Assembly (NCBI RefSeq): GCF_964194155.1 | Contig: NC_135899.1 | Coordinates: 56,482,001-56,546,000, forward strand | Length of the DNA: 64,000 bases | Source of the DNA: Cetorhinus maximus | Taxonomy: Eukaryota | Reading direction: 5' to 3' | Shown here: piece after piece, positions 24,839-25,395 of the stretch | How the letters are laid out: each line of letters begins with the position of its first letter | Numbering within the stretch: position 1 is the stretch's first letter | Made by a program: the position numbers and the translations under genes | The notes under the pieces: model-generated | Seen by the model: only the letters and a program-made list of their open reading frames with translations | The model's database searches: none | Told to the model about the DNA's origin: nothing

Positions 24839-24965
24839 ATTGGAGGCGGCGAGCGAGAAGCGCCCGAGTTCAAACCGCTTCTTCAGGCCGCAGGCGGGAG
24901 GGGCGGAGCCTCCGTGGACCTCCGACCACCAGGGGGCGCTGCGGGGGAGGAGCGCCACCTGCGGG
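24839..24965 (-). promoter_or_regulatory. MEAF6 CpG-rich promoter/5' UTR with GC box and CTCF-like motif
   Basis: GGGGCGGAGC at about 24900-24909; CCACCAGGGGGCGC (consensus CTCF core, + strand) at 24926-24939; YY1-like AATATGGCG over the ATG. Confidence 0.7.
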
Positions 24966-25395
24966 ATTGGGGGATGCATTACACCCAATACACCGCCACC
25001 TGGAGGACTGGAGTGTATTATACCCAGCACACCGCCACCTAGAGGACTGGAGGGCAAATTATACCAACATACCGCCACCTAGAGGACTGGAGAGTGTATT
25101 ACACGCAACACACCGCCACCTAGAGGACTGGAGGGCAAATTATACCAACATACCGCCACCTAGAGGACTGGAGAGTGTATTACACGCAACACACCGCCAC
25201 CTAGAGGACTGGAGAGTGTATTACACCCAACACGCCGCCACCTAGAGGACTGGAGAGTGTATTACACCCAACACGCCGCCACCTAGAGGACTGGAGAGTG
25301 TATTACACCCAACACGCCGTCACCTAGAGGGCTGGAGGGCACTTAATACCAACAACGCCACCTTCAGGTCTGGAGGGTACATTACACCCAACACC
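24952..25395. repeat. ~41-bp minisatellite, 11 units, each containing a CTCF-like motif (CCGCCACCTAGAGG = CCTCTAGGTGGCGG on minus)
   Basis: Motif starts at 24952, 24993, 25032, 25072, 25113, 25153, 25194, 25235, 25276, 25317, 25355; periods 38-41 bp. Confidence 0.92.

What the first reader, a model, noticed from the sequence alone, without database searches (positions are those of the whole stretch)
24926..25395. Tandem array of 11 CTCF-like motifs built by a minisatellite at the MEAF6 promoter
Seen: a ~41-bp repeat starts about 110 bp upstream of the MEAF6 ATG. Its near-invariant part reads CCTCTAGGTGGCGG on the minus strand, while the rest of the unit varies (40/41-bp units alternate as an 81-bp dimer at 25032-25193). 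Several units also have (T/C)GTAATACA 9 bp upstream of the core. A consensus site CCACCAGGGGGCGC on the + strand (24926-24939) faces the array. Known: the CTCF core is about CCASYAGRKGGCRS, with an optional upstream TGCAAT/TGCAGT module read by zinc fingers 9-11. Inference: one promoter CTCF site was amplified into a unidirectional array between the SNIP1 3' end and the MEAF6 promoter. It could act as a strong loop anchor or insulator whose strength depends on copy number.
Basis: partly seen in the sequence, partly recalled or inferred. Interest (0 to 1): 0.8.

Follow-up and report, generated by a model that had tools for sequence, protein, structure and literature searches.

The report
CTCF-site minisatellite at MEAF6 promoter
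A 41-base DNA unit carrying a binding motif for the genome-folding protein CTCF is repeated eleven times just upstream of the MEAF6 gene; the same genome has dozens of unrelated repeats of this kind, many beside gene starts, so it looks like a recurring way of multiplying CTCF sites, though binding and function are untested.

Summary
The array is real: 11 head-to-tail units of 38-41 bp, cores at 24952-25368 on the minus strand, 114 bp upstream of the MEAF6 ATG, unique in this 4-Gb genome. Five units carry an upstream module at a spacing this genome prefers. Contigs of two related organisms show 6 units, so the number changes. Variation among units spares the six most constrained core positions (0 variants, p about 0.02) but not the upstream module. 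It is one of roughly 35-40 unrelated CTCF-motif repeats found here; 19 of 27 have a CpG-rich flank against 9 of 40 single sites, several beside first coding exons. Their number does not clearly exceed what chance capture of abundant CTCF sites predicts. Best reading: tandem duplication of a promoter-edge CTCF site, cores kept bindable, acting as a local one-way barrier or anchor. A copy-number-tuned domain boundary is possible but unsupported: no binding or Hi-C data were available. Closest known: mouse DXPas34 and homotypic CTCF clusters. The scan noted a similar array before, upstream of XPA in another genome (e1-7791257).

The parts
24952..25394 (-). Minisatellite of 11 units (38-41 bp), each with a CTCF-type core pointing toward MEAF6
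24952..24983 (-). Unit 1, most promoter-proximal and diverged: core CCCGCAGGTGGCGC, upstream TGTAATGCA at 9 bp
   Evidence: present in relatives B and C
25032..25193 (-). 81-bp dimer repeated twice (units 3-6): a unit with broken upstream module alternating with an intact one
25064..25267 (-). Five units (204 bp) absent from contigs of organisms B and C; four of the five carry the intact upstream module; joint position uncertain by 40 bp
   Evidence: table 5
25317..25394 (-). Units 10-11, distal and diverged (2 and 3 mismatches to the consensus)
24926..24939 (+). Single consensus CTCF core without upstream module, 12 bp from unit 1, opposite orientation; C>T at position 5 in B, substitution plus 1-bp insertion in C
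24552..24951 (.). CpG-rich promoter/exon 1 region (35 CpG per 400 bp, GC 0.68) against 6 CpG and GC 0.35 behind the array: the array sits on the island's outer edge
24749..24838 (-). MEAF6 first coding exon (30 codons)
   Evidence: the name rests on the NuA4 domain in the next exon and on recall of the human N-terminus
19178..19303 (-). MEAF6 exon with NuA4 (PF09340) domain
28776..29117 (-). SNIP1 last coding exon (second half of FHA domain), stop 3.4 kb behind the array

Best explanation
A CTCF site at the outer edge of the MEAF6 CpG-island promoter was duplicated head to tail (inferred), giving a single-locus minisatellite that keeps gaining or losing internal units (6 in two relatives, 11 here; shown by contigs). 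Each unit holds a core for zinc fingers 3-7 (shown by motif match); 5 to 7 units also hold a module for fingers 9-11 at 9 bp. The 41-bp unit is just longer than the 39 bp that all 11 fingers would cover (-18 to +21, from the structures), so neighbouring units could be occupied together (inferred). The cores are kept bindable, probably by weak selection. The likely action is that of a reinforced, one-directional CTCF cluster: it raises occupancy at the island's edge, stops cohesin arriving from the MEAF6 side and helps to fence the promoter off from SNIP1 and the CpG-poor flank (all inferred). The expansion itself is probably mutation-driven, and copies beyond the first few may add little. The same process has acted at many other promoters of this genome.
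For: Single locus: 1 place by DNA search; an exact 20-mer occurs 7 times in the genome, all in the array. The core pattern is 13-fold enriched in the genome over its reversed control, 11,245 vs 866; 42 of the first 100 listed sites have T at position 3 like this unit (hand count). Upstream-module search: 53 of 56 matches have 8-10 bases between the 8-mer and the core, control 0; the array's spacing (10) is shared by 12 other loci or families after collapsing repeats. The chicken HS4 oligo printed in PMC12885311 has TGTATTTAC at the same 9-bp distance. Distinct variants in this array: 0 at 6 constrained core positions, 6 at 7 degenerate ones, 19 at 27 non-core positions (p 0.022 and 0.024); 12 other arrays: 24 at 72 vs 212 at 369 (p 0.005). 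Listed differences in relatives' array cores fall at positions 3, 4, 5, 5, 14, 14. The core CpG is intact in all 11 units. 8 of the 10 exact core matches in 314 kb lie in the array. Tandem duplication at germline CTCF sites is documented in human (PMC8559717, passages).
Against: No binding data. The 'constrained' positions come from my recall of the matrix, not from a matrix run here. The upstream module is not spared (7 variants at 9 positions) and is intact in only 1 of the 6 units shared with relatives; 3 of 6 variants at degenerate positions leave the allowed set; pooled arrays show no CpG asymmetry (C12>T in 3, G13>A in 2). The other arrays were found by demanding two exact cores, which favours clean cores. 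Between species the cores changed no less than the rest: 6 listed differences in 84 core bases against 5 in the other shared array bases, with 19 rows of that table hidden. Several arrays have decayed cores (L041, L043, L047). If the 9-bp distance is the '6-bp spacer' class (my mapping, from recall), it is the weaker of the two common classes (bioRxiv 10.64898/2026.01.05.696797, section read).
Confidence: 0.5

Rival explanations
1. One reading: the array is a major loop anchor or domain boundary, and its copy number is selected to tune insulation between the ZC3H12A-MEAF6 side and the SNIP1 side.
For: It is the dominant CTCF cluster in 314 kb, points left, and the next exact site is a right-pointing one 53 kb to the right, the divergent layout seen at skate boundaries (PMC10115646, passages). 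Tandem CTCF sites insulate in mammals (PMC7087399, passages). Four of the five extra units carry the upstream module, which an IL3 insulator needs (PMC12885311, passages).
Against: No Hi-C. Only 50 kb right of the window was scanned; the four left-side sites are imperfect and of mixed orientation. The mammalian passages read concern gene-cluster arrays, not 41-bp units. Two relatives have 6 units, most without an intact module.
Confidence: 0.2
2. A neutral by-product: open promoter DNA bound by proteins in the germline is prone to tandem duplication, a CTCF site was caught in the unit, and neither copy number nor the extra cores matter.
For: PMC8559717 proposes this for binding-site clusters. 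With single sites 13 times commoner than the control, the control's tandem matches (0, 22 and 20; at least 2 loci, places not listed) scale to some 26 loci against about 35-40 seen. Periods run from 15 to 75 bp. Non-CTCF repeats also lie at several of the same islands. Spacer bases are as uniform as the core in units 2-9.
Against: Variants avoid constrained core positions here and in 12 other arrays. 0 of 6 unselected minisatellite rows (period 30-80, 4 loci) had a CpG-rich flank, a very small sample. The end units persisted across three organisms.
Confidence: 0.22
3. The motif is read mainly by the paralogue CTCFL in the germline, or is not bound at all, and the repeat acts, if at all, as a promoter element.
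For: Sharks have CTCFL, which lacks the cohesin-binding YDF motif (PMC7471279, passages). Promoter-side, clustered sites are where CTCFL binds in mammals (recalled, no call).
Against: Five units carry the upstream module at a preferred spacing; the core is 13-fold enriched genome-wide.
Confidence: 0.08

Closest known systems
DXPas34 minisatellite beside the mouse Tsix promoter
   Same: Monomers of about 34 bp, each with a CTCF site, CpG-rich, next to a promoter; monomer type and number differ among related species (PMC3149622, passages).
   Different: DXPas34 belongs to X-inactivation control; this array lies at a chromatin-housekeeping gene, has an upstream module in part of its units, and is one of many unrelated arrays in the genome.
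Homotypic CTCF clusters made by germline tandem duplication
   Same: Insertions at CTCF sites often copy the motif (PMC8559717, passages).
   Different: Those are rare 5-20-bp insertions in people; here a 41-bp unit with the whole site has reached 6-11 copies and persisted in three organisms.
Tandem CTCF insulators of Pcdh and Igh clusters
   Same: Several same-direction sites that together insulate (PMC7087399, passages).
   Different: Not minisatellites; sites belong to separate promoters or enhancers (their kilobase spacing is recalled). Function shown there, untested here.
DXZ4, FIRRE and ICCE macrosatellites; HRNR VNTR
   Same: Tandem repeats dense in CTCF motifs; motif conserved while the rest drifts (PMC6125249, abstract and outline); CTCF motif number follows repeat length at HRNR (10.1101/2022.03.17.484784, passages).
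   Different: Far larger units and arrays, X-linked or exonic; not promoter-edge minisatellites.
Chicken HS4 and human IL3 insulator sites
   Same: Core plus upstream module; the HS4 oligo has TGTATTTAC 9 bp before the core, as TGTAATACA here (PMC12885311, passages).
   Different: One or two sites with measured activity, not a repeat.

Membership tests
CTCF binding site | 12-15-bp core read by fingers 3-7 | tested here: met
   9 of 11 cores within 1 mismatch of the consensus; pattern enriched 13-fold in the genome. Consensus match only; no JASPAR matrix was at hand.
CTCF binding site | Upstream module for fingers 9-11 at an allowed spacing | tested here: met
   5 of 11 units; spacing among the three that hold 53 of 56 genome matches. 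The pattern was written to fit this unit and recalled variants.
CTCF binding site | Constrained positions spared by mutation | tested here: inconclusive
   Core yes (0 of 6 positions vary, p about 0.02), upstream module no (7 variants at 9 positions), no CpG asymmetry in pooled arrays.
CTCF binding site | Bound by CTCF in vitro or in vivo | not testable with these tools
   The 22 runs listed gave no ChIP library label.
Minisatellite / VNTR | Head-to-tail units of tens of bases at one locus | tested here: met
Minisatellite / VNTR | Copy number differs between genomes | tested here: met
   204-bp skip in 3 of 4 runs laid (organisms B, B, C); the fourth contig stops inside the array. Between species only.
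Minisatellite / VNTR | Copy number polymorphic among individuals | tested here: inconclusive
   X1, another sample of this organism, covers 24325-25050 only and differs by one base.
DXPas34-type CTCF minisatellite | A CTCF site in each monomer, beside a CpG-rich promoter | tested here: met
   definition from PMC3149622
DXPas34-type CTCF minisatellite | Demonstrated regulatory effect on the neighbouring gene | not testable with these tools
   needs deletion or reporter
TAD boundary / CTCF super-anchor | Cluster of same-direction sites with divergent partners | tested here: inconclusive
   Cluster yes; one right-pointing exact site 53 kb away; 314 kb scanned, 200 left and 50 right of the window.
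TAD boundary / CTCF super-anchor | Insulation in Hi-C and cohesin occupancy | not testable with these tools
   no contact data
Transposon-spread CTCF site | Many dispersed copies of the same unit | tested here: not met
   1 place; 7 of 7 exact 20-mers inside the array. An old, diverged element would escape both searches.

The most novel reading that the evidence does not exclude
In cartilaginous fishes, housekeeping promoters repeatedly and independently recruit minisatellites whose unit is one whole CTCF footprint (33 bp or more) at the outer edge of the CpG island, mostly pointing into the gene, as a self-renewing fence against the repeat-rich flanks of a very large genome; copy number tunes the fence. 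18 of 20 arrays with period 33 or more have a CpG-rich flank against 1 of 7 shorter ones (cut chosen after seeing the data), with first coding exons of MEAF6, Nop53, DUF4660, GCV_T and ZDHHC9-like genes ahead of them.
Probability: 0.2. Interest if true: 0.75.

Novelty: new variant of a known kind. Interest (0 to 1): 0.45.

Why it matters
Whether clusters of CTCF sites are adaptive or a mutational by-product is an open question in mammals. This genome offers some twenty independent promoter arrays with countable, same-direction sites and natural copy-number differences between close species (6 vs 11 here), which makes dose against insulation or methylation directly testable. If the arrays are neutral, they are still a clear case of binding sites multiplying themselves. 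The single locus alone is of modest interest.

Tried and rejected
Dispersed repeat or transposon origin: rejected. Excess of CTCF arrays over chance: not shown once the 13:1 single-site ratio is applied. A strict footprint-length rule for all arrays: rejected, periods of 15-31 bp exist. A first CpG-island test with repeats masked was not significant: 15 of 33 arrays vs 10 of 40 single sites, p 0.085; the reported test is a second, unmasked one on the 27 arrays with 400-bp flanks (dropped: L047, L048, L124, L127, L128, L132 for lack of flank; L118, L126 with only 2 sites), with two spans extended by hand. Orientation bias toward the island: 13 of 19, p 0.17, not significant. CpG-decay asymmetry as a sign of selection: none. 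A loop between the + site and the array: rejected, 12 bp apart. Coding function: three open frames cross parts of the array but read as repeat translations; not pursued. PDB searches did not name the MEAF6 exon 1 or L051 peptides; Pfam did not name those of L051, L120, L044, L041. No cover of 25098-25211 in any run laid is explained by the joint in three runs and by a contig end in X1. Ten literature searches showed no title or abstract start on CTCF minisatellites in sharks; none holds MEAF6, SNIP1 and CTCF together. Subscription papers are outside the library and no supplements were opened, so shark ChIP-seq papers may hold relevant data.

Full report
Observation. Tandem Repeats Finder reports period 41, 10.3 copies, 83% matches at 24978-25394 and the repeat finder 11 copies. 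Read on the minus strand each unit is a 9-base upstream module, a 9-base spacer, a 14-base core and a short tail. A perfect + strand core lies at 24926-24939, 12 bp from unit 1. No other 14-mer in the window comes within 1 mismatch. TGTAATACA stands 9 bp before the core in 5 of 11 units; units 1 and 11 have near versions; units 2, 3, 5 and 10 do not. The uniform block includes 7 spacer bases, so 'only the motif is invariant' overstates it.

Setting. The first coding exon at 24749-24838 (-) is followed by an exon with the NuA4 domain at 19178-19303, the only match in the genome, which fits MEAF6. SNIP1 is confirmed against PDB 5z56_X, E 1.6e-70; its stop lies at about 28776. A ZC3H12-family gene lies 237 kb to the left, as recalled for the human order. 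The array sits on the outer edge of the CpG island: 35 CpG in the 400 bp ahead, 6 behind.

Is it a CTCF site? No matrix was available, so I used the genome as its own reference. With TGYARTAC placed 7-14 bases ahead there are 56 matches and 0 controls; gaps are 8 (20), 9 (6), 10 (27), 12 (2), 14 (1). The 27 include this array (5), one dispersed family (7) and one other array (5), leaving 12 other loci or families. The structures place fingers 8-11 on positions -1 to -18 and finger 1 on 19-21 (PMC10484683, sections 12 and 15 and passages), a 39-bp span that the 41-bp unit just holds. The HS4 insulator oligo has its module at the same distance (PMC12885311, passages). Binding is likely (about 0.85) but inferred.

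Origin and change. The unit occurs nowhere else: one place by DNA search and 7 of 7 exact 20-mers in the array. Of 22 runs listed I laid 4. Three of them, from two other organisms about 95% alike, cross the array in one contig with a 204-bp skip, 25063 to 25268, which is five units; the fourth, another sample of this organism, ends at 25050. So B and C have 6 units. These are short-read contigs, and collapse cannot be excluded, but three runs of two organisms give the same joint without a break. The inner units here are nearly identical, which points to a recent gain (inferred, not polarised). Listed differences in the relatives' array cores are at positions 3, 4, 5, 5, 14 and 14; five lie outside cores; 19 table rows were not shown. 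In organism C the lone + site has a substitution and an insertion that weaken it.

Selection. Counting distinct variants per position among the 11 units: 0 at six positions that I recall as nearly fixed in the matrix (1, 2, 6, 7, 10, 12), 6 at seven degenerate ones, 1 at position 11, 19 at 27 non-core positions; one-sided p 0.022 and 0.024. Twelve other arrays agree (24 at 72 vs 212 at 369, p 0.005), but they were found by motif. Against selection: the upstream module varies as much as anything (7 at 9), 3 of 6 degenerate-position variants leave the allowed set, CpG decay in pooled cores is symmetric (3 vs 2), and between species cores are not quieter than the rest. The evidence for constraint is modest and limited to the core.

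It is one of many. Two exact cores in tandem give 56, 61 and 111 matches for gaps of 22-34, 1-21 and 35-64 bases (100 of the 111 listed), about 35-40 loci or families by my count, with unrelated units of 15-75 bp. Reversed controls give 0, 22 and 20 matches, at least two loci; scaled by 13 that is some 26, so no clear excess. Placement is less random. At least 15 CpG in a 400-bp flank: 19 of 27 arrays, 9 of 40 single sites picked from the first 100 on contig C1 (p 1.4e-4); 18 of 20 for periods of 33 or more, 1 of 7 for shorter (p 6e-4, post hoc). An earlier, masked version was not significant (15 of 33 vs 10 of 40, p 0.085), and the controls come from one contig. First coding exons lie 65-350 bp ahead of arrays that point at them: Nop53, DUF4660, GCV_T (Pfam; the last just under its cut-off), ZDHHC9-like, and two that I recall as TRUB2 and SDF2 with no tool match; an importin-alpha gene has its array pointing away. 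Direction overall is 13 of 19 toward the island, p 0.17. Unselected minisatellites of period 30-80 had CpG-rich flanks in 0 of 6 rows, too few to settle whether promoters simply attract repeats; several of these islands do carry non-CTCF repeats.

Neighbourhood. In 314 kb (200 left, the window, 50 right) the array holds 8 of 10 exact cores; the others are the lone site and a + site 53 kb to the right. That fits the left half of a divergent boundary, the layout reported in skate (PMC10115646, passages), but it is thin.

Mechanism. Shown: sequence, uniqueness, copy-number difference, position on the island edge. Inferred: CTCF binds several units at once; the cluster stops cohesin from the MEAF6 side and steadies the promoter's border; amplification came from duplication at a protein-bound germline site, as described in human (PMC8559717, passages). 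I give this 0.5, a copy-number-tuned domain boundary 0.2, a neutral by-product 0.22, and CTCFL or no binding 0.08 (sharks have both genes: PMC7471279, passages). A 41-bp 'methylation barrier' motif in human is related to a VEZF1 site, not CTCF (PMC11109949, passages), and is not this element.

Known and new. Tandem CTCF insulators (PMC7087399), CTCF macrosatellites (PMC6125249, abstract) and a VNTR with length-dependent CTCF motifs are also in print. Ten searches (listings seen) showed nothing on such arrays at shark promoters; supplements were not opened. The locus is a new member of a known kind; its recurrence at many housekeeping promoters makes it a variant worth a test. Interest 0.45.

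Noticed in passing
G000, 20 loci (e.g. C1:34573417, C4:16355791, C18:51657223): A class of CTCF-like sites with only 8 bases between the upstream 8-mer and the core; most have a CCTG(T/C)AG core and many GTTA in the spacer. A distinct binding mode or an old repeat.
   Followed up: no
L049:4595-5188 (G000:C1375): 51-bp, 11.6-copy CTCF array with TGTAATAC at the same spacing in 9 of 12 rows, about 950 bp upstream of an AID/APOBEC coding exon (3645, - strand; Pfam E 1e-42) and pointing away from it.
   Followed up: partly
L050:4810-5001 (C718; also C853, C972, C1101, C1149, C1236, C1253, C1854, C2372): A 4-5-site array with the canonical TGCAGTTCC module beside a GC-box repeat and CpG island, on at least 9 small contigs: a multicopy gene or macrosatellite, not identified.
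   Followed up: partly
G000:C24:1.18-14.8 Mb and C1093: Seven near-identical full CTCF sites (module plus core) dispersed over one contig and a small one; probably a duplicated gene family or repeat.
   Followed up: no
L047 (C40:7.78 Mb), L127-L128 (C6:74.09 Mb), L113, L115, L124: Long satellites (2.8 to over 10 kb; units 22-37 bp) with tens to hundreds of CTCF-like cores, many decayed, mostly without CpG-rich flanks.
   Followed up: partly
L046:4577-6614 (C33:18.32 Mb): Array ahead of a Nop53 gene; on its other side an AAGATGGCG motif (YY1-like, recalled) and a 440-codon open frame that looks like a Harbinger-type transposase (recalled, not searched).
   Followed up: no
window 50450-51600: 1.1-kb compound GA-rich repeat (units such as AGAGAGAGAGAGACTGGGATAG) with strong strand skew.
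   Followed up: no
window 37200-49000 and 60800-64000: Broken reading frames that look like LINE and Penelope-type retroelement remnants (recalled look, not searched).
   Followed up: no
runs X1, X2, X7: Small contig sets (12-13 million letters) of this organism hold the MEAF6 promoter; library type not on record, so some enrichment or reduced representation is likely.
   Followed up: partly
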